From a virus (lineage: Duplodnaviria; Heunggongvirae; Uroviricota; Caudoviricetes): a stretch of DNA of 15,853 nucleotides. This document shows, in pieces, positions 11,041 to 15,853 of this stretch. The translations under genes and the position numbers were made by a program. The notes beneath the pieces were generated by a model. That model ran no database searches. It saw only the letters and a list, made by a program, of their open reading frames with translations, and had not been told where the DNA came from. The stretch lies in IMG/VR virus record IMGVR_UViG_2693429700_000007; one strand, given 5' to 3'. Every line of letters starts with the position of its first letter. Position 1 is the first letter of the stretch.

Positions 11041-12798
11041 TTAAAGCGAGCGGATGCCCACGCTGACCAGATGTTCAGACAGATCCGGCTCCGGTTCACC
11101 ACCATTGACCAGCATCCGGCTCATCGCTGTAAACATCGCAACAGGGCCGTCGATTTTGGCTTCCGGCGTGGATTTATTCGGGAAGATATTGTCGTTTTTG
11201 TCCGGTTTTACCGTAACGTTAGACATCATCCAGTTCATGACCGGATGATTGCTGTGATGGAAACGTCCGGCATAGACCAGTGATTCCGTTTCCTTCATGG
11301 CCTCTGACAGATTGCGAACCGTCTGCGGAACCTCCACCAGCGGTATCCCTTCTTCAGCCAGTGCCAGGCTGAACTGCATCGCGCTCCACGGGTCAAATCC
11401 CAGTTCCCTGAGGTTTTCACCACCAATCCATTCCAGTAAGTCACTTTTTATCTGAGCATGATCGATAACATCACCATCCGTCAGAATCAGCTTATCCATC
11501 TCCGCCCACTTCCGGTAAAGTTCTGCCTGCTGCCGCGAGCATCGTTCCAGCCGTCCTTCCGGGAGCCAGAATTTAAAATCGGCATGAACATGCCCGTTAT
11601 CCGTTCGCCAGAGTTTTGCCGCCGCACAGATATCAATCTTATGAGCAAGGTCAACGCCGACCCACATGGGATACGTTTTCAGCTCATGTCGTGGGGCAAT
11701 GTATTCGCATTTCTCCCACTTAATCATGTCCATCCAGGCAGACTCGGCAGTGACCCACACATTCATGTGTTTGGTAAAAAAATTCACCCGCGCTGAAACC
11801 TGTTCCTTCGCTTTTTTCGCCAGACGACGCAGATCATCCCAGCGTTTACAGATGCCCAGGCCCGGATTCGCTTTCTGCCAGACCGTTTCATCAAACGGAT
11901 CATCTCCCTCATCGAGCGTGTAAATAATCGCAAAGTAGGAGTCGTCTTTTACCGCGCCCTCCACGTCACTGTTATAGCCTCGCAATACCTTGATGGCGTA
12001 ATCGCGTTGCTCGTAACAAATCCCTTCCTTGTTAAAGCCCGCCGTGGTGATACCAAATAACAGGGACTGCAGACGGGCACCGGTTGCCGTTTCCAGAACG
12101 TCCCACACGTCGCGGGTTTTATGTGCATGCAGCTCATCAATAATGGCGCAGTGGATGTTCAGACCGTCCAGGTTGTTTGCATCCGAGGAAAGCGGTTCAA
12201 ATTTTGATGCGCTCTGCTCCTGGTAAATCGCCAGCTTGTTGAAATCAAACAACCGCCCGAGTGTCGACCGGGCTTTTCTGACCATATTTTTGGCGTCTTC
12301 AAACACGATTCTGGCCTGGTCACGCGTGGTTGCGGCTGAATACACCTCAGCACCGCCTTCACCATCTGCCCCCGTCATATAAAGACCGATACCCGATGAC
12401 AGGGTTGATTTTGCGTTTTTACGGGCGACTTCGTTGTACGCCGTCCGGAACCGGCGCACCATCACCGGGCGTCCGCTGCCATCGCTGCGCATGACAACTT
12501 CCCCGGTCTCTTCATTCACCAGCGGAATGACAAAACCAAAAATATTAATGAGGATAAATACATGCCAGTCCATCAACTCAATGGGCTGGCCTGCCAGCGC
12601 CCCTTTTACATGAGGCACAAATTTATAGAAATTCAGGATGTGTTGTGCACGGGGTTCACTGAAATAAATCCCCCGCTCTTCGCCGTACTTCAGATCATCA
12701 AGAAAACGCTGGCAGGCCAGACGGACAAATTCGCCAGCGACAATTTCTCCTGCAACAACACGTTCGGCGTAGCGGATCCCGTCAGCCACTTTTGCCAT
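11041..12798 (-). CDS. Terminase large subunit
   Basis: 585-aa ORF, ATG at 12798-12796 overlapping the small-subunit stop (ATGA). Size, position upstream of portal and overall sequence character fit a terminase ATPase/nuclease. Confidence 0.85.
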
Positions 12799-13280
12799 CA
12801 GTCTCTCGCTTTTAAAAGCTCCGCCAGCGGATCAACATCATCCGGTCCGGTGGTATTTACTTTCGCCCGGCTTGCCGGTGACATACCAAACTCTGCAAGC
12901 ATCGCCCGGATCCGCTTCCAGGCATCCGCTTTCATTGCCGCCGCGGGGTGCGCCTTAATCAGTACATCACCACTCTGCGTTTCCGTGCGATAGGTATACC
13001 CCTCAACATCCAGTGTTTCGCAGTGATGCCGATATTCGGTGTAGGCTTCCACCAGTAACTCGAGCGCACGCGCATCAAGCTGAGAAATGATCCCTTCCGC
13101 ATTCAGCTCTTCCGCCATTCGCCTGAACCAGTACTTCCCCTGTGCCCCTAAATGCTGCGGAATTTTAGGAAGACCTTTTTCATCCTTTTTAGCGGTTTTT
13201 TTGGGGTCTTTAACGGGGCGCTTTGAGGGGTTGCCTCGTATCAAATGCAGGCGTGGCGGGGTTTTCGGGGGTCCTGACAT
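12798..13280 (-). CDS. Terminase small subunit (P27-like family)
   Basis: 160-aa ORF, ATG at 13280-13278. Basic N-terminus MSGPPKTPPRLHLIRGNPSKRPVKDPKK... is typical of P27/HK97 gp1-type small terminase subunits. Lies immediately upstream of the large subunit. Confidence 0.75.
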   Translation of the reverse strand: MSGPPKTPPRLHLIRGNPSKRPVKDPKKTAKKDEKGLPKIPQHLGAQGKYWFRRMAEELNAEGIISQLDARALELLVEAYTEYRHHCETLDVEGYTYRTETQSGDVLIKAHPAAAMKADAWKRIRAMLAEFGMSPASRAKVNTTGPDDVDPLAELLKARD

Positions 13281-13426: not shown

Positions 13427-13777
13427 TCAGTTGATGCGTTCGCGCGCTGTTTTTGCTTTATGGCAGGACCAGCACAGACTCTGCAGGTTACTGTCTGCAT
13501 CCGTGCCACCATGAGCTTTCGGAATGATGTGGTCCACAGTTCTGGCTTCAACGGCTCTCCCATTGCGCAGGCAGTTCTGACACAGATGATTATCACGCTT
13601 CAGTATGCGCGCACGTATGGTATCCCATTTCGAACCATATCCACGCTGGTGGCGGCTCAGTCCGCGTTGATGCTGTACCCATCCTTCGCCACGATGTGTA
13701 TCACAGTAACCAGAACTGTCTGTGGTTGTATCTGCACATCCACGCTTACGACAGGCGCGTGGGATTCGTGATGGCAT
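13427..13777 (-). CDS. HNH endonuclease (terminase-associated, HK97 gp74-like)
   Basis: 116-aa ORF, ATG at 13777-13775. Cys-rich with a clear HNH motif: …VDHIIPKAHGGTDADSNLQSLCWSCHKAK…. Its position directly upstream of cos and terS matches the HNH proteins that assist HK97-type terminases. Confidence 0.85.
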   Translation of the reverse strand: MPSRIPRACRKRGCADTTTDSSGYCDTHRGEGWVQHQRGLSRHQRGYGSKWDTIRARILKRDNHLCQNCLRNGRAVEARTVDHIIPKAHGGTDADSNLQSLCWSCHKAKTARERIN

Positions 13778-13797: not shown

Positions 13798-14094
13798 TTA
13801 AAGCGCTTGTCCCTCAGGGAGGATACAGATCACCCCCAACCCCGCAGCCACGGCGTACTGATTATGTTCATCGACAAGATTTATTGTGCTATCAAGTAAC
13901 TCACGACAGTGGCTTACATTCGTTTCAATGCTCAACACCAGTGAATAAGCACTATTCAACTCCTGACCTGATAAGAACGGAGAATCAGCAGAAACAATTT
14001 CCGATTTTATTTTTCGCAGAGCGCAAAGATTTTCTTCAATGCATTTTCTCAGGACAACGCAACGCCCAATCGCCTCATAGTTTTGCTCAGACAT
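13798..14094 (-). CDS. Hypothetical protein (98 aa), moron-like gene between Rz/Rz1 and HNH
   Basis: The track ORF opens with TTG at 14112. The likely start is ATG at 14094-14092 with AGGTGGG upstream. Translation MSEQNYEAIGRCVVLRKCIEENLCALRKIKSEIVSADSPFLSGQELNSAYSLVLSIETNV... has no signal peptide or TMD. The region looks lower in G+C than its flanks by eye. Confidence 0.5.
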   Translation of the reverse strand: MSEQNYEAIGRCVVLRKCIEENLCALRKIKSEIVSADSPFLSGQELNSAYSLVLSIETNVSHCRELLDSTINLVDEHNQYAVAAGLGVICILPEGQAL

Positions 14095-14119
14095 TTCACC
14101 CACCTGTTTCAAAAGTACT

Positions 14120-14584
14120 CTACTTAATGCACTGATCGCGGATATATTCCTGCAATCCCCTGATCATTTTTTCGCTGGTTGCAGCTCGCTCTCTGAGGAT
14201 GAAATAATCCCGTTGAGCGGAGTCAGTAAGTCCGGGGCTGGCTGCATCATCCACGCCGGAGGAGGCGGTGGCTTCACGCACGGCTGGACAGACTGCTCTG
14301 ATGCGCAACCGACGACGACCAGCGGCAATATCATCACGCAGAGCATCATTTTCAGCTTTCGCATCAGCTAATTCCTTTGAATATTTTGCATCGAGTGCAG
14401 CAACGTCACGCTGGCGCACCTGCATATCAGTAATGATCGCCTCTGCCAGTTTCAGCTCTCTGGCATTGTCATCGCGTTGTGTTTTGTAGGTAATGGCGTT
14501 ATCGCGGTAATGCTCTGTTGCCAGCCACAGAGCACTACAGACCATCAGCAGGACAATAATCACGCCATACAGAATTCGGTTCAT
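14120..14584 (-). CDS. Rz: i-spanin Rz
   Basis: Start ATG at 14584-14582 (MNRILYGVIIVLLMVCSALWLATEHYRDNAITYKTQRDDNARELKLAEAIITDMQ...), 1 nt after the upstream ORF stop (TGAAATG), with GGTGG Shine-Dalgarno. Closely resembles lambda Rz from memory, with an N-terminal TMD and coiled-coil periplasmic domain. The track ORF extends 17 codons further upstream, which I judge spurious. Confidence 0.85.
   Translation of the reverse strand: MNRILYGVIIVLLMVCSALWLATEHYRDNAITYKTQRDDNARELKLAEAIITDMQVRQRDVAALDAKYSKELADAKAENDALRDDIAAGRRRLRIRAVCPAVREATASSGVDDAASPGLTDSAQRDYFILRERAATSEKMIRGLQEYIRDQCIK
14164..14364 (-). CDS. Rz1: o-spanin Rz1 (lipoprotein, embedded in the +1 frame of Rz)
   Basis: MRKLKMMLCVMILPLVVVGCASEQSVQPCVKPPPPPAWMMQPAPDLLTPLNGIISS... 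has a lipobox (LVVVGC) and a Pro-rich stretch, and closely resembles lambda Rz1 from memory. Entirely nested within Rz. Confidence 0.85.
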   Translation of the reverse strand: MRKLKMMLCVMILPLVVVGCASEQSVQPCVKPPPPPAWMMQPAPDLLTPLNGIISSSESELQPAKK

Positions 14585-14585
14585 T

Positions 14586-14723
14586 TCACCACCAGCGTAT
14601 CTGACCGATGAAATAACCGGAGCCCATAACCACAAACACCAGCCAGATAAGGATGAACTTCCAGATGGATAATTTTTCAGCCATCACTCGAATCTCCAGA
14701 ATCAGTTTGCTAAAATCAAACAC
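14586..14723 (-). CDS. Small single-TMD membrane protein (45 aa from GTG; 32 aa if from the internal ATG at 14684) between the endolysin and Rz
   Basis: GTG at 14723-14721 with a strong AAAGGAGAAAAC Shine-Dalgarno. Translation MFDFSKLILEIRVMAEKLSIWKFILIWLVFVVMGSGYFIGQIRWW* has one hydrophobic helix, and its stop is 1 nt from the Rz ATG. The track's 64-aa version would run through the upstream hairpin and is less likely. Confidence 0.5.
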   Translation of the reverse strand: MFDFSKLILEIRVMAEKLSIWKFILIWLVFVVMGSGYFIGQIRWW

Positions 14724-14756
14724 GTTTTCTCCTTTAGCTTTCCCATGGGCAGAAAA

Positions 14757-14800
14757 CAAAACCCCGCTTGCTGCCAACAAACGGGGTTTTTGCTTTTATT
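14757..14800. terminator. Hairpin with flanking T-tracts (possible bidirectional intrinsic terminator) inside the lysis cassette
   Basis: Plus strand reads AAAACCCCG-(15-nt loop with internal TTG/CAA pairing)-CGGGGTTTT followed by TGCTTTTATT. On the minus strand the same stem is followed by GUUUUCUG, then the Shine-Dalgarno of the small ORF. The T-tract is better on the plus strand. Confidence 0.45.
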
Positions 14801-14880
14801 CACTTACCTTTTGCCAGTTTGCAGAATATCGTGCTATCCGCTTGTGTGAGCAAACGGCATTTTTCAGCAAAATATTCTGC

Positions 14881-15414
14881 TTATCTGTCGATCCCCCAGC
14901 ACACCAGCGCACTCTCCTGGTCACGACGAATAACCTGACCGTAACAGTTATTTGAACGAATGCGGCAATCACGGCCACCGTCCTTAATCCACCAGCGAAT
15001 CGCCTCGCATGCGCCTTTGCGATCACCGGCATTCAGCCGCTTATAAAACGTCGACGGGAAACACTTACCGGGGCCAATGTTATAGGGACAAAATGACGCA
15101 ATACCTGCTTTTTGTGGTTCGGTCAGTGGTACTTTTATATTGCGATCCACCCATGCCAGCGCCTTATCACGTTCAATAGCGTTAACCTGGTCGCATTTTT
15201 CCTTCGACAGCTTCATTCCCGGTATGACGGGCTTACCATCCACCATTGTGGCACCACGACAGATGGTCCATATGCCAGAACCATCACGGTATGCCGTTGT
15301 GTGGTTACCTTCTTTTTCATCCAGAAACTGGTCAAGTATTTGAGGAGCAGACGCGCCTGCAGCAATCAGCGCCAGAACGGCAGCTGACAGGCCGTATTTG
15401 ATTTTTGCGTTCAT
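14881..15414 (-). CDS. R: Endolysin, T4-lysozyme-like (GH24), probable SAR (signal-anchor-release) type
   Basis: 177-aa ORF, ATG at 15414-15412. Catalytic spacing E-x8-D-x5-T is present (EGNHTTAYRDGSGIWT). The N-terminus YGLSAAVLALIAAGASAPQIL is a weakly hydrophobic Gly/Ala-rich segment typical of SAR domains. It resembles phage 21 R and E. coli prophage Rrr-type lysozymes from memory. No clear Shine-Dalgarno. Confidence 0.85.
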   Translation of the reverse strand: MNAKIKYGLSAAVLALIAAGASAPQILDQFLDEKEGNHTTAYRDGSGIWTICRGATMVDGKPVIPGMKLSKEKCDQVNAIERDKALAWVDRNIKVPLTEPQKAGIASFCPYNIGPGKCFPSTFYKRLNAGDRKGACEAIRWWIKDGGRDCRIRSNNCYGQVIRRDQESALVCWGIDR

Positions 15415-15477: not shown

Positions 15478-15716
15478 TTAAGGTTGCGATTCCGGAGGAG
15501 TCTTCAGAGAACAAGTAATTCTTCCCGGTAGCTTTCCTTTGTAGGTTACCCACACATTCTGCGCCTCAAAAATTATGGGGCGTTTTTCTGGCGACGGCTC
15601 ATCCCATTCACATAACCTGGCAGCAACATCCAGAAATACCTGTCTGATTCTCCTTCTGGCTGCTGCCTCATAAAACTCCAGCGCGGCACCTTCAACACGG
15701 TCCAGCGAGATGTCCA
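15478..15716 (-). pseudogene. 5'-truncated ORF upstream of the endolysin, interrupted by the IS insertion (possible DUF1327/YdfR-like gene remnant)
   Basis: The 79-codon frame ends in TAA at 15478 and its apparent ATG overlaps the first base of the IS inverted repeat (15717), so the native N-terminus lies beyond the IS. Hydrophilic, so not a holin. The family suggestion comes only from recalled gene order in E. coli Qin-like prophages. Confidence 0.4.
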
Positions 15717-15853
15717 TGAACCGCCCCGGAAATCCTGGAGACTAAACTCCCTGAGAAAGAGGTAAACAGGATGACTAAAAATACTCGTTTTTCCCCCGAA
15801 GTCCGTCAGCGGGCGATTCGTATGGTTCTGGAAAGTCAGGATGAATATGACTC
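15717..15853 (+). mobile_element. Left end of an IS3-family insertion sequence (IS629/IS1203-like), partial
   Basis: Sequence from 15717 (TGAACCGCCCCGGAAATCCTGGAGACTAAACTCCCTGAGAAAGAGGTAAACAGG-ATG) matches the left inverted repeat and leader of IS629 as I recall it. It is followed by the start of orfA; the element continues beyond the window. Confidence 0.75.
15771..15853 (+). CDS. IS3-family transposase OrfA, N-terminal fragment (partial, runs off the right edge of the window)
   Basis: ATG at 15771 preceded by GAGG; translation MTKNTRFSPEVRQRAIRMVLESQDEYD... is the characteristic N-terminus (HTH region) of IS629/IS1203 OrfA. Confidence 0.75.
   Translation, partial: MTKNTRFSPEVRQRAIRMVLESQDEYD

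What the first reader, a model, noticed from the sequence alone, without database searches (positions are those of the whole stretch)
14586..14723. Unassigned small single-TMD protein gene wedged between the SAR endolysin and Rz
Canonical lambdoid lysis cassettes run holin, endolysin, Rz/Rz1 with no gene between endolysin and Rz. Here a 32-45 codon ORF with a strong Shine-Dalgarno (AAAGGAGAAAAC), one hydrophobic helix and a stop 1 nt from the Rz ATG occupies that slot. SAR endolysins depend on membrane depolarisation for release, so a small membrane protein co-expressed right after one could be a lysis-timing factor, an antiholin-like or pinholin-like element, or an unrelated membrane moron. 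It may also be the remnant of a larger deleted gene, since the flanking 245-bp gap carries repeats and a hairpin.
Basis: partly seen in the sequence, partly recalled or inferred. Interest (0 to 1): 0.55.

Follow-up and report, generated by a model that had tools for sequence, protein, structure and literature searches.

The report
Mobile small membrane-peptide cassette before Rz
The small gene between the endolysin and Rz is real: it is a 45-residue membrane peptide carried on a roughly 230-base cassette found in many phage late operons (and, in a distant form, in CRISPR operons), whose sequence suggests a toxic peptide kept in check by its own antisense RNA, although its function is untested.

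Summary
The ORF runs 14723-14586 on the minus strand, with a GTG start, a GGAG Shine-Dalgarno 5 nt upstream, one transmembrane helix, and a stop 1 nt before the Rz ATG.

- **It is a real gene.** It belongs to PHROG 6632 (function unknown) and is annotated 'hypothetical' in some E. coli and Stx-phage records. Codons 15-43 show saturated synonymous change with conserved residues.
- **It is not tied to SAR endolysins or to lysis.** The ORF, a hairpin about 30 nt upstream and a structured leader travel together. This unit sits between three endolysin types and several kinds of downstream spanin-position gene, in baseplate and tail operons of Salmonella, E. coli, Yersinia and Pseudomonas phages, and upstream of holins.
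- **An antisense promoter is likely.** Codons 3-5 and 12 never vary synonymously. On the opposite strand they spell T.G...-17 nt-TGnTAAnAT, aimed at the two-way terminator hairpin. This predicts a 75-nt antisense RNA covering the SD and start codon.
- **Distant CRISPR-linked homologues lack both hairpin and motif.** They sit between cas3 and cas5 of type I-C CRISPR operons, under a CRISPR-repeat-like repressor RNA. That position is known for toxins.

Best reading: a type-I-toxin-like, RNA-gated membrane peptide riding the late operon. No expression or toxicity data exist.

The parts
14586..14723 (-). 45-codon ORF (GTG start, TGA stop), a single-pass membrane peptide of family PHROG 6632
   Evidence: Protein-level purifying selection in codons 15-43. 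Homologues across Enterobacterales and Pseudomonas.
14682..14684 (-). Internal ATG (Met14), nearly invariant across the family, with GGAG 9 nt upstream. Possible second start giving a 32-aa form.
   Evidence: Met14 and Glu10 (always GAG) are invariant in 12 lineages and nearly so in 27 sequences. Many gene callers call the 32-aa form. Use as a start is inferred, not shown.
14724..14757 (-). Leader with the Shine-Dalgarno (GGAG at 14732-14729). It is predicted to pair with the U-rich stretch after the hairpin, sequestering the SD.
   Evidence: Fold of the gene strand. A helix in the same place in 12 of 13 relatives, kept through sequence changes such as CTTG/CAAG versus CATG/CATG. Conserved leader blocks.
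14758..14790 (.). G+C-rich hairpin flanked by an A-tract on one side and a T-tract on the other, so a two-way intrinsic terminator. It forms the 5' boundary of the mobile unit.
   Evidence: Present about 30 nt upstream of the ORF in every phage context. The core CCCCG/CGGGG is conserved, with one covarying pair (AU 5, GC 4, CG 4).
14688..14716 (+). Putative antisense sigma-70 promoter inside codons 3-12: TCGAAT (14688-14693), a 17-nt spacer, then TG (14708-14709) c TAAAAT (14711-14716)
   Evidence: Zero synonymous change at codons 3, 4, 5 and 12 in 12 lineages. The motif is kept in 21 hairpin-bearing lineages, including hosts of 57-62% G+C and copies whose amino acids changed. It is absent in the 2 lineages without the hairpin. 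Not detected by the stricter consensus scan. Activity is inferred.
14723..14797 (+). Predicted antisense RNA of about 75 nt, complementary to the start codon, SD and leader, ending at the hairpin plus U-tract
   Evidence: Inferred from the promoter and terminator positions. Folds into a 5' helix plus terminator, -23.2 kcal/mol, z -2.7. No Rfam family matches. No transcript data.
14120..14584 (-). Rz (inner-membrane spanin). Its ATG is 1 nt after the small ORF's stop, and its SD-like GGTGG is formed by the peptide's two Trp codons.
   Evidence: The same stop-N-ATG junction occurs with Rz, a DUF2570 gene and a baseplate gene in other loci.
14164..14364 (-). Rz1 (outer-membrane lipoprotein spanin) embedded in Rz
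   Evidence: Pfam Rz1 at 6e-18, PHROG 3198.
14881..15414 (-). Endolysin of the SAR (signal-anchor-release) lysozyme type. Upstream neighbour of the cassette.
   Evidence: Pfam Phage_lysozyme, PHROG 7. 98% identical to an E. albertii prophage endolysin that is followed directly by Rz.
14801..14880 (-). Spacer of about 80 nt after the endolysin stop, with a 15-nt inverted repeat. It is shared with cassettes that carry an antirepressor instead, so it is not part of the mobile unit.

Best explanation
The ORF is a real gene for a 45-residue single-pass inner-membrane peptide. It is the payload of a self-contained cassette of about 230 nt: a two-way terminator hairpin, a structured leader, then the ORF. 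The cassette inserts between genes of phage late operons.

I propose that it works like a type I toxin-antitoxin module without a toxin promoter of its own.

1. The peptide is membrane-damaging, and its synthesis is deliberately restrained. The start codon is weak (GTG or TTG) in all but two lineages, the Shine-Dalgarno is folded into a leader helix, and the hairpin limits stray read-through from upstream.
2. A promoter hidden in codons 3-12 on the opposite strand makes an antisense RNA of about 75 nt. This RNA covers the start codon and Shine-Dalgarno and ends at the same hairpin.
3. In a lysogen the antisense RNA and the hairpin keep the peptide off.
4. When the late operon fires (in a lambdoid phage, through antiterminated polymerase), sense RNA outruns the antisense RNA and the peptide is made alongside the endolysin and spanins.
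5. There it would depolarise or perturb the membrane. This would help trigger a pinholin/SAR-endolysin system but is not specific to one.
6. The peptide's last codons (TGG TGG TGA) provide a ribosome-binding site for the next gene, so the insertion does not silence Rz.

**Shown here:** coding selection, cassette mobility, hairpin linkage, site-specific synonymous constraint, and the joint presence or absence of hairpin and promoter motif.

**Inferred:** promoter activity, the antisense RNA, toxicity, and timing.
For: **Coding**
- Conserved residues carry free third positions: F23 TTC/TTT 6:6; G36, A34 and G40 with 3-4 codons each.
- In codons 15-43, pS is 0.55-0.97 against pN 0.12-0.50.
- The family has 115 clusters at 90% identity and 91 representatives at 50% identity. 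All are small, and none has a named function.

**Insertion and mobility**
- Endolysin abuts Rz in relatives.
- Empty baseplate sites exist in Klebsiella and E. coli phages, against a 240-nt insert in SEN34.
- Contexts with three endolysin types, and in baseplate, tail and pre-holin positions.
- Sequence upstream of the hairpin's A-tract is unrelated between contexts.

**Antisense unit**
- Codons 3, 4, 5, 10 and 12 show no synonymous change in 12 lineages.
- Synonymous diversity is 0.21 in codons 3-13 against 0.56 in codons 15-43, column-permutation p about 0.007.
- The invariant third positions fall at promoter positions -8, -11, -14 and -35. The variable ones fall in the spacer.
- The motif TGnTAAnAT, 17 nt from T.G..., is kept in 21 lineages, including Pseudomonas-type copies at 57-60% G+C. 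It is also kept where DFSK became EFIK or DFIK.
- The A-tract needed only for antisense termination is conserved.
- Two CRISPR-linked lineages lack both hairpin and motif and use other codons (TTC TCC, GAA, CGC/CGG).

**Restraint on translation**
- GTG or TTG start in all but two cassette lineages (L269 and L272 start with ATG).
- SD-sequestering helix.

**Toxin nature (indirect)**
- Homologues (hhalign probability 96.7%, E 3e-10) sit between cas3 and cas5.
- Their promoter is targeted by a degenerate-repeat RNA with a TTC PAM, matching 15/20 and 17/20.
- That layout is described for CRISPR-repressed toxins and abortive systems (PMC8501985, PMC9458426, preprint 10.1101/2024.12.27.630466).

**Precedent**
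- hokW-sokW, a type I pair in Stx prophage Sp5, is induced with the prophage and doubles phage release (PMC8621323).
Against: - No transcript, ribosome-profiling or toxicity data were available for any member.
- The -35 element is weak (TCGAAT, 3 of 6), and the consensus scan reports no promoter here.
- No Rfam family matches.
- The Hfq-bound sRNA list for E. coli O157 Sakai has nothing at this site. However, the two Sakai prophages inspected carry a different insert, so this is uninformative.
- Unlike canonical type I systems, no promoter for the toxin mRNA was found. The 30-35 nt between hairpin and SD cannot hold one.
- In the window the hairpin is stronger on the gene strand (15 pairs with G-U) than on the antisense strand.
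- Leader-helix energies do not consistently favour one strand.
- A working sense terminator would be polar on essential baseplate genes in phages without antitermination, so the hairpin's role on the gene strand is unclear.
- Part of the N-terminal conservation is protein-level, because the CRISPR-linked copies keep DFSKLL.EL.LM with different codons.
- The link from CRISPR context to toxicity is by analogy only.
Confidence: 0.5

Rival explanations
1. Prophage-expressed moron. The peptide is made in the lysogen and benefits the host or prophage, for example by blocking DNA entry of superinfecting phages (as with HK97 gp15) or altering envelope physiology. The hairpin only insulates it from neighbouring transcription.
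For: The distribution is classic for a moron: the gene sits between genes that are adjacent in related phages, in tail and lysis operons. It is a small inner-membrane protein. It is retained in very many E. coli prophages, including this one, whose lysis cassette is interrupted by an IS element.
Against: No promoter was found on the gene strand. Sequences upstream of the hairpin are not conserved between contexts, and the hairpin-to-SD interval is too short for one. The terminator is upstream rather than downstream of the gene. The weak start codon and sequestered SD argue for restrained, not constitutive, expression. No match to defence-system models.
Confidence: 0.2
2. Dedicated lysis-timing factor of the pinholin/SAR-endolysin cassette (antiholin-like, pinholin-like or endolysin-release factor).
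For: In Enterobacterales the commonest position is endolysin-cassette-spanin, translationally coupled to the following gene. Two possible starts (GTG and the invariant Met14 with its own GGAG) recall holin/antiholin dual starts. A second, unrelated small single-TMD ORF occupies the same slot in antirepressor-type cassettes.
Against: The same cassette follows non-SAR endolysin types (M15 peptidase, GH19). It also sits in baseplate, tail and pre-holin positions far from lysis genes. A distant branch is in cas operons. Many close relatives of this endolysin-Rz pair lack it.
Confidence: 0.12
3. Addiction or abortive-infection module. A stable sense RNA and a labile antisense RNA make loss of the prophage, or shut-off by an invading phage, lethal.
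For: The architecture is that of a type I pair. The CRISPR-linked relatives look like addiction guards of Cascade. Per the discussion of PMC8621323, a hok-sok system reduced T4 plating.
Against: This needs toxin mRNA in the lysogen, but the cassette has no sense promoter and carries a terminator in front. Insertion in the middle of late operons is an odd place for a maintenance module.
Confidence: 0.12
4. The ORF is not functional as a protein. Either the RNA element alone matters, or the ORF only delivers ribosomes to Rz, or it is a decayed remnant.
For: The 5' third is constrained at the DNA level. The 3' end supplies the SD for the next gene. Several annotation pipelines skip the ORF.
Against: There is a strong protein-level signature in the TMD. 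Length stays within about 41-57 aa and the frame is kept from Pseudomonas to Escherichia, with a conserved helix pattern. Broken copies are rare.
Confidence: 0.04

Closest known systems
Type I toxin-antitoxin pairs with membrane-peptide toxins, especially hokW-sokW of Stx2 prophage Sp5 (PMC8621323), and Hok/Sok, Ldr/Rdl and ZorO/OrzO in general
   Same: A hydrophobic single-TMD peptide under 60 aa. Translation is restrained by leader structure. A short antisense RNA with its own promoter and terminator is predicted to overlap the translation start. It is carried on a prophage. HokW is induced with the prophage and aids phage release.
   Different: No sequence similarity. No promoter for the toxin mRNA, because the ORF rides the host operon. 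The antisense promoter lies inside the toxin's own first 12 codons. The cassette is only about 230 nt and is translationally coupled to the next gene. Neither the antisense RNA nor toxicity has been shown.
Phage morons (the HK97/HK022 concept; for example HK97 gp15, lambda bor and lom)
   Same: Extra DNA between genes that are adjacent in related phages, located in late operons. The payload is often a membrane protein.
   Different: Canonical morons have a promoter in front and a terminator behind, and are expressed in the lysogen. Here the terminator is in front, no sense promoter is seen, and the only promoter-like signal points the other way.
CRISPR-repressed toxin modules (CreTA; PMC8501985, PMC9458426, PMC10097628) and CRISPR-supervised cargo between cas3 and cas5c of type I-C systems (preprint 10.1101/2024.12.27.630466)
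   Same: Distant homologues of this peptide occupy the cas3-cas5c gap. A degenerate repeat and a partly matching TTC-flanked target lie over their promoter. The logic is the same: a harmful product held off by an RNA.
   Different: This applies to a distant branch, not to the window's gene. The CreT toxins in the CreTA papers retrieved here are RNAs, not membrane peptides. The repressor is a Cascade guide acting on transcription, not an antisense RNA acting on translation.
Holin/antiholin dual-start genes (lambda S105/S107, phage 21 S68/S71)
   Same: A small membrane protein in a lysis cassette with two candidate starts, differing by a charged N-terminal extension.
   Different: One TMD rather than two or three. 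The extension is 13 residues. The family is not confined to lysis cassettes. A class II holin family gene is annotated upstream of the endolysin in related prophages.
ECs_1966/ECs_5741-type 48-aa ORF of antirepressor-containing lysis cassettes in E. coli O157 Sakai
   Same: A single-TMD ORF immediately upstream of Rz in the same slot. It occurs in tandem with a member of this family in phage phiSTEC1589.
   Different: Unrelated sequence. No upstream hairpin of its own was seen. Function also unknown.

Membership tests
PHROG 6632 (phage protein family of unknown function) | Full-length match to the 45-position profile | tested here: met
   E 1e-26, residues 1-45 matched to profile positions 1-45.
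Type I toxin-antitoxin system | Small hydrophobic toxin ORF (under about 60 aa, one TMD) that is truly protein-coding | tested here: met
   45 aa with one TMD. Purifying selection in codons 15-43.
Type I toxin-antitoxin system | Antisense RNA gene with its own promoter and terminator overlapping the toxin mRNA | tested here: inconclusive
   A promoter-like T.G...-17-TGnTAAnAT with synonymous-site constraint, plus a two-way terminator. The two are present or absent together. No transcript data, and the consensus scan is negative.
Type I toxin-antitoxin system | Independent promoter for the toxin mRNA | tested here: not met
   No promoter-like site on the gene strand. Sequence upstream of the hairpin is not conserved across contexts.
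Type I toxin-antitoxin system | Toxicity of the peptide, neutralised by the RNA | not testable with these tools
   Requires expression experiments.
Phage moron | Insertion between genes that are adjacent in related phages | tested here: met
   Endolysin abuts Rz in relatives. The baseplate genes overlap in empty-site phages, against a 240-nt insert in SEN34.
Phage moron | Own promoter upstream and terminator downstream of the gene | tested here: not met
   The terminator is upstream. The stop codon is 1-22 nt from the next gene's start in most phage loci, including all lysis-cassette and baseplate copies. No sense promoter.
Phage moron | Expression from the repressed prophage | not testable with these tools
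   No transcriptome available for a cassette-bearing lysogen.
Holin / antiholin / pinholin | Consistent linkage to endolysin genes across the family | tested here: not met
   Members lie in baseplate, tail and pre-holin positions, and a distant branch in cas operons.
Holin / antiholin / pinholin | Dual translational starts giving two isoforms | tested here: inconclusive
   A GTG/TTG start, plus a nearly invariant Met14 preceded by an invariant GAG that forms GGAG or GAGG 8-9 nt upstream. Use of the second start is unknown.
Holin / antiholin / pinholin | Required for, or able to modulate, endolysin release | not testable with these tools
   Needs lysis assays.
CreTA-type CRISPR-repressed toxin | Degenerate CRISPR repeat plus a spacer-like guide partly matching a PAM-flanked site at the gene's promoter, next to Cascade genes | tested here: not met
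   Not met for the window's gene, which has no cas genes and no repeat. Met for distant homologues L274 and L276: GGATTGAAAC handle, 15/20 and 17/20 matches, TTC PAM. A TTGAAA-17-TAGAAT promoter was found in L274 only.

The most novel reading that the evidence does not exclude
This peptide family is a previously unrecognised class of membrane toxin kept silent by RNA in two different ways.

- In phages it travels as a cassette of about 230 nt that carries its own antisense-RNA gene, with the promoter written into the toxin's first 12 codons and a two-way terminator. The cassette can drop into any late operon without polarity.
- In type I-C CRISPR loci the same peptide has been recruited as a protein CreT-like toxin repressed by a Cascade guide.

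In this prophage it would act as an RNA-timed membrane-depolarising trigger made together with the SAR endolysin and spanins.
Probability: 0.3. Interest if true: 0.8.

Novelty: new variant of a known kind. Interest (0 to 1): 0.62.

Why it matters
The cassette is present in about 40% of complete E. coli genomes and in many Shiga-toxin phages, including H-19B. It sits inside the operon that releases toxin and virions, yet it has no assigned function and is often left unannotated.

If the peptide is an RNA-gated membrane toxin, three things follow:
- It is an overlooked component of lysis timing, and therefore of Stx release.
- It shows how a toxin gene can carry its antitoxin promoter inside its own coding sequence.
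- It links phage cassettes and CRISPR guard modules through one shared effector.

The predictions are cheap to test with one Northern blot, one promoter fusion with synonymous mutations, and one induction experiment.

Tried and rejected
- **Rfam.** Scans at gathering and at permissive thresholds found nothing. The only hint was a sub-threshold match to the OhsC antitoxin RNA (22.9 bits against a cut-off of 50, E 0.36), driven by the terminator. I rejected it.
- **Protein libraries.** Pfam, NCBIfam, PADLOC and PDB sequence searches gave no family for the peptide.
- **Known prophage sRNAs.** AgvB/AsxR-type and Pas sRNAs lie upstream of the holin or downstream of stx, not here. Hfq-bound peaks EcOnc11 and EcOnc12 looked promising by spacing. 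In Sakai Sp10, EcOnc11 maps just downstream of Rz (EcOnc12 in Sp9 was not mapped), and Sp10 and Sp15 carry an antirepressor insert instead of this cassette.
- **Leader helix strand test.** I asked whether the helix favours one strand. Pseudomonas-type copies favour the antisense strand through G-U pairs, while enteric copies slightly favour the gene strand. Inconclusive.
- **RNAalifold.** It recovered only the terminator stem, because the leader aligns poorly.
- **Target-site duplications.** Filled versus empty baseplate sites showed none that is consistent. A CAGAC repeat in SEN34 is absent in the E. coli copy.
- **Extended ORF.** The 64-aa form from TTG 14780 was rejected.
- **Remnant hypothesis.** Rejected on the narrow length range of complete copies.
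- **Structure prediction.** Not run. A single helix would add nothing.
Full report
**Observation.**
All genes in this part of the window are on the minus strand.
- The endolysin (15414-14881) is a phage lysozyme with a Gly/Ala-rich N-terminal helix typical of signal-anchor-release enzymes.
- Rz starts at 14584, with Rz1 embedded at 14364-14164.
- Between them lie 296 nt that contain the reported ORF. It has a GTG at 14723, GGAG five bases upstream, 45 codons, one hydrophobic helix, and a TGA at 14588-14586 one base before the Rz ATG. An in-frame ATG at 14684 gives the 32-residue version.
- A terminator-like hairpin sits at 14758-14790, and a second inverted repeat at 14821-14835/14866-14880.

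**Is it a gene?**
- The peptide matches PHROG 6632, a 45-position family of unknown function, end to end (E 1e-26).
- It has no match in Pfam, NCBIfam, PADLOC or the PDB.
- The region occurs in 2048 of 5426 complete E. coli genomes and in 323 phage records, including H-19B and many Stx1/Stx2 phages.
- Some records annotate it as 'hypothetical' or 'putative bacteriophage protein', one calls it 'HAD family hydrolase', and many do not annotate it at all.
- Profile searches found 115 clusters at 90% identity and 91 representatives at 50% identity. They come from Escherichia, Salmonella, Citrobacter, Enterobacter, Klebsiella, Yersinia, Serratia, Providencia, Pseudomonas and metagenomes. All are small proteins.
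- In 12 lineages below 93% DNA identity, conserved residues of the helix carry freely varying third positions (F23 TTC/TTT 6:6; A34, G36 and G40 with three or four codons each). Against relatives, codons 15-43 give pS 0.55-0.97 and pN 0.12-0.50.

The frame is therefore translated and under protein-level selection. The 64-codon extension through the hairpin is not conserved, and Pseudomonas-type copies have a stop directly before the start. The closest proteins and the closest endolysin are from Escherichia albertii, so the window is probably from that species.

**It is an insertion, and a mobile one.**
In 80 endolysin loci from different species, the peptide is present only in one Escherichia locus. 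Where an Rz relative is detectable, it usually begins within about 15 nt of the endolysin stop. In K-12 Qin the two genes overlap.

The same ORF turns up in quite different places:

| Position | Phage or locus |
|---|---|
| After an M15-peptidase endolysin; before Rz or a DUF2570 gene | E. coli |
| After a GH19 endolysin | Enterobacter |
| Between baseplate spike and wedge genes | Salmonella phage SEN34; E. coli prophages |
| In tail-tip operons | Pseudomonas aeruginosa and Yersinia prophages |
| Upstream of the holins | One contig |

- Relatives of SEN34 have the two baseplate genes overlapping, whereas SEN34 has a 240-nt insert.
- In every phage context the hairpin lies about 30 nt upstream of the ORF, preceded by an A-tract. 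Sequence further upstream is unrelated between contexts.
- The unit is therefore hairpin, leader and ORF, about 230 nt. The 80 nt directly after the endolysin stop is not part of it, because antirepressor-type cassettes share that stretch.
- The unit's 3' end in the enteric copies (CGN TGG TGG TGA) gives an SD-like GGTGG for whatever gene follows. Several junctions are stop-N-ATG.

**A second signal inside the first 12 codons.**
Synonymous variation is not uniform.
- Codons 3, 4, 5, 10 and 12 (GAT NTT AGC ... GAG ... CGA) never change in the 12 lineages, including Pseudomonas-type copies from loci of 57-60% G+C.
- Synonymous diversity is 0.21 for codons 3-13 and 0.56 for codons 15-43 (column permutation p about 0.007).
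- Read on the opposite strand, these bases form TCGnnn, 17 nt, TGc TAAnAT. That is an extended -10 promoter with a weak -35.
- The invariant third positions correspond to -8, -11, -14 and -35. The variable third positions fall in the spacer and other low-information positions. The one exception, GAG, is discussed below.
- The pattern is site-by-site rather than block-wise, so recent recombination does not explain it.
- Twenty-one hairpin-bearing lineages keep the motif. These include copies in which the amino acids changed (DFSK to EFIK or DFIK) while the critical bases stayed.

Transcription from this promoter would start at about the GTG. It would run across the Shine-Dalgarno and leader and stop at the hairpin, whose conserved upstream A-tract supplies the U-tail needed only in that direction. 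The predicted RNA is about 75 nt (14723-14797, + strand). It folds into a 5' helix and the terminator (-23.2 kcal/mol, z -2.7).

On the gene strand, the leader is predicted to pair the Shine-Dalgarno with the U-rich stretch after the hairpin. A helix in that position is kept in 12 of 13 relatives through sequence changes.

The start codon is GTG or TTG in all but two cassette lineages, which use ATG. Met14 is nearly invariant, and the invariant GAG of codon 10 forms GGAG or GAGG 8-9 nt upstream of it. A shorter isoform, which the antisense RNA would not cover, is therefore possible.

**A natural control, and a hint to function.**
- Distant but clear homologues (hhalign probability 96.7%, E 3e-10) lie between cas3 and cas5 of type I-C CRISPR operons on three contigs.
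- They start with ATG and have no nearby hairpin. They use other codons at exactly the constrained sites (TTC TCC, GAA, CGC/CGG), and the antisense motif is gone. Hairpin and motif are thus present together or absent together.
- Upstream of these copies, on the other strand, is a degenerate I-C repeat ending GGATTGAAAC, followed by a spacer-like stretch. That stretch matches (15/20 and 17/20) a TTC-flanked site just upstream of the ORF. In L274 this site overlaps the ORF's own promoter, TTGAAA-17-TAGAAT.
- This is the arrangement described for CRISPR-repressed toxins and for CRISPR-supervised abortive systems in the cas3-cas5c gap (PMC8501985, PMC9458426, PMC10097628; preprints 10.1101/2024.12.27.630466 and 10.1101/2024.10.29.618823).
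- By analogy, the peptide is something a cell must keep off.

**Mechanism proposed.**
I read the cassette as a type-I-toxin-like module that lacks a toxin promoter and instead rides the host operon.
1. In the lysogen, the hairpin and the antisense RNA prevent synthesis.
2. When the late operon is transcribed, sense RNA exceeds antisense RNA, and the membrane peptide is made with the endolysin and spanins.
3. A membrane-perturbing peptide at that time would favour triggering of a pinholin/SAR-endolysin system. The effect is generic, which fits the cassette's presence in tail and baseplate operons.

The hokW-sokW pair of prophage Sp5 is a precedent. It is induced with the prophage and doubles phage release (PMC8621323).

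Shown here are coding selection, mobility, hairpin linkage, site-specific synonymous constraint and the co-occurrence control. Promoter activity, the RNA, toxicity and timing are inferred.

**Weak points.**
- The -35 is poor, and the consensus scan finds no promoter.
- No Rfam family matches.
- The Hfq-bound sRNA catalogue of O157 Sakai has nothing here. However, the Sakai prophages checked carry a different insert, so it says nothing either way.
- In the window the hairpin is stronger on the gene strand.
- A working sense terminator would be polar in phages without antitermination.
- No toxin promoter exists, so the module is not a canonical type I system.

**Rivals.**
- A lysogen-expressed moron (exclusion or host fitness) fits the distribution. 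It does not fit the missing promoter, the upstream terminator and the restrained start.
- A dedicated SAR-endolysin timing factor fits the commonest enteric position and the two starts. It does not fit the non-SAR endolysins, the non-lysis positions or the cas branch.
- An addiction or abortive module fits the architecture, but it needs toxin mRNA in the lysogen.
- A non-protein role is contradicted by the selection signature.

**Novelty.**
The gene's existence is on record, but only as an unnamed hypothetical. I found no paper on it in the library searched. The cassette structure, its mobility across operons and hosts, the promoter-in-codons signal and the CRISPR-linked branch appear not to have been described. 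It is best filed as a new variant of known kinds (type I toxin-antitoxin and moron), pending experiments.

Noticed in passing
L274 2240-2662; L276 1300-1653; L277 1-239: Distant homologues of the peptide sit between cas3 and cas5d/cas5c of type I-C CRISPR operons. A degenerate repeat (ending GGATTGAAAC) and a spacer-like guide match a TTC-flanked site just upstream of the small gene (over its promoter in L274). This looks like a CreTA-like module with a protein toxin. At least five more representatives carry the same QPGYRF-type motif (P0142, P0149, P0156, P0178, P0179).
   Followed up: partly
L260 5625-5771 (Sakai ECs_1966); L261 1749-1895 (ECs_5741); L091 about 2137-2270: A second, unrelated 48-aa single-TMD ORF lies directly upstream of Rz in lysis cassettes that carry an antirepressor. 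In phage phiSTEC1589 it follows a member of the present family in tandem. The endolysin-Rz junction seems to collect small membrane ORFs.
   Followed up: partly
window 15478-15853: An IS3-family transposase orfA begins at 15772 (+). A DUF1327/YdfR-like gene (15717-15478, -) matches its family only from position 38, so it is truncated at the N-terminus. No holin gene lies between it and the endolysin, so the lysis cassette appears interrupted and the prophage may be defective.
   Followed up: partly
window 14801-14880: A 15-nt inverted repeat (14821-14835/14866-14880), with a nested stem, lies just after the endolysin stop. It is conserved in antirepressor-type cassettes and in Salmonella phages. 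Function unknown.
   Followed up: no
window 14586-14600 and equivalent sites in L172, L173, L266: The peptide's C-terminal codons TGG TGG TGA form an SD-like GGTGG for the next gene at a stop-N-ATG junction, whatever that gene is (Rz, a DUF2570 gene, a baseplate wedge protein). In SEN34 the insert instead brings an AAGGAGG of its own.
   Followed up: partly
L003 1680-1817: RefSeq names one copy of this 45-aa peptide 'HAD family hydrolase' (WP_192825475.1), which is clearly a mis-annotation. Gene callers also often report only the 32-aa form from the internal ATG.
   Followed up: no
window 13427-13777 and 11041-13280: An HNH endonuclease gene sits next to the small and large terminase genes. 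By my recollection this is the usual arrangement of HK97-like cos packaging modules. Between it and Rz lies a 104-aa ORF (13798-14112) of PHROG 4827, function unknown.
   Followed up: no
L269 3001-3144; L270; L271: A divergent member (MGEFIKTLKELLAM..., ATG start) keeps the hairpin and the antisense TGATAAACT motif. It lies next to genes with no phage-related Pfam hit (lactate/malate dehydrogenase, HpcH/HpaI aldolase), so it may sit outside a prophage.
   Followed up: no
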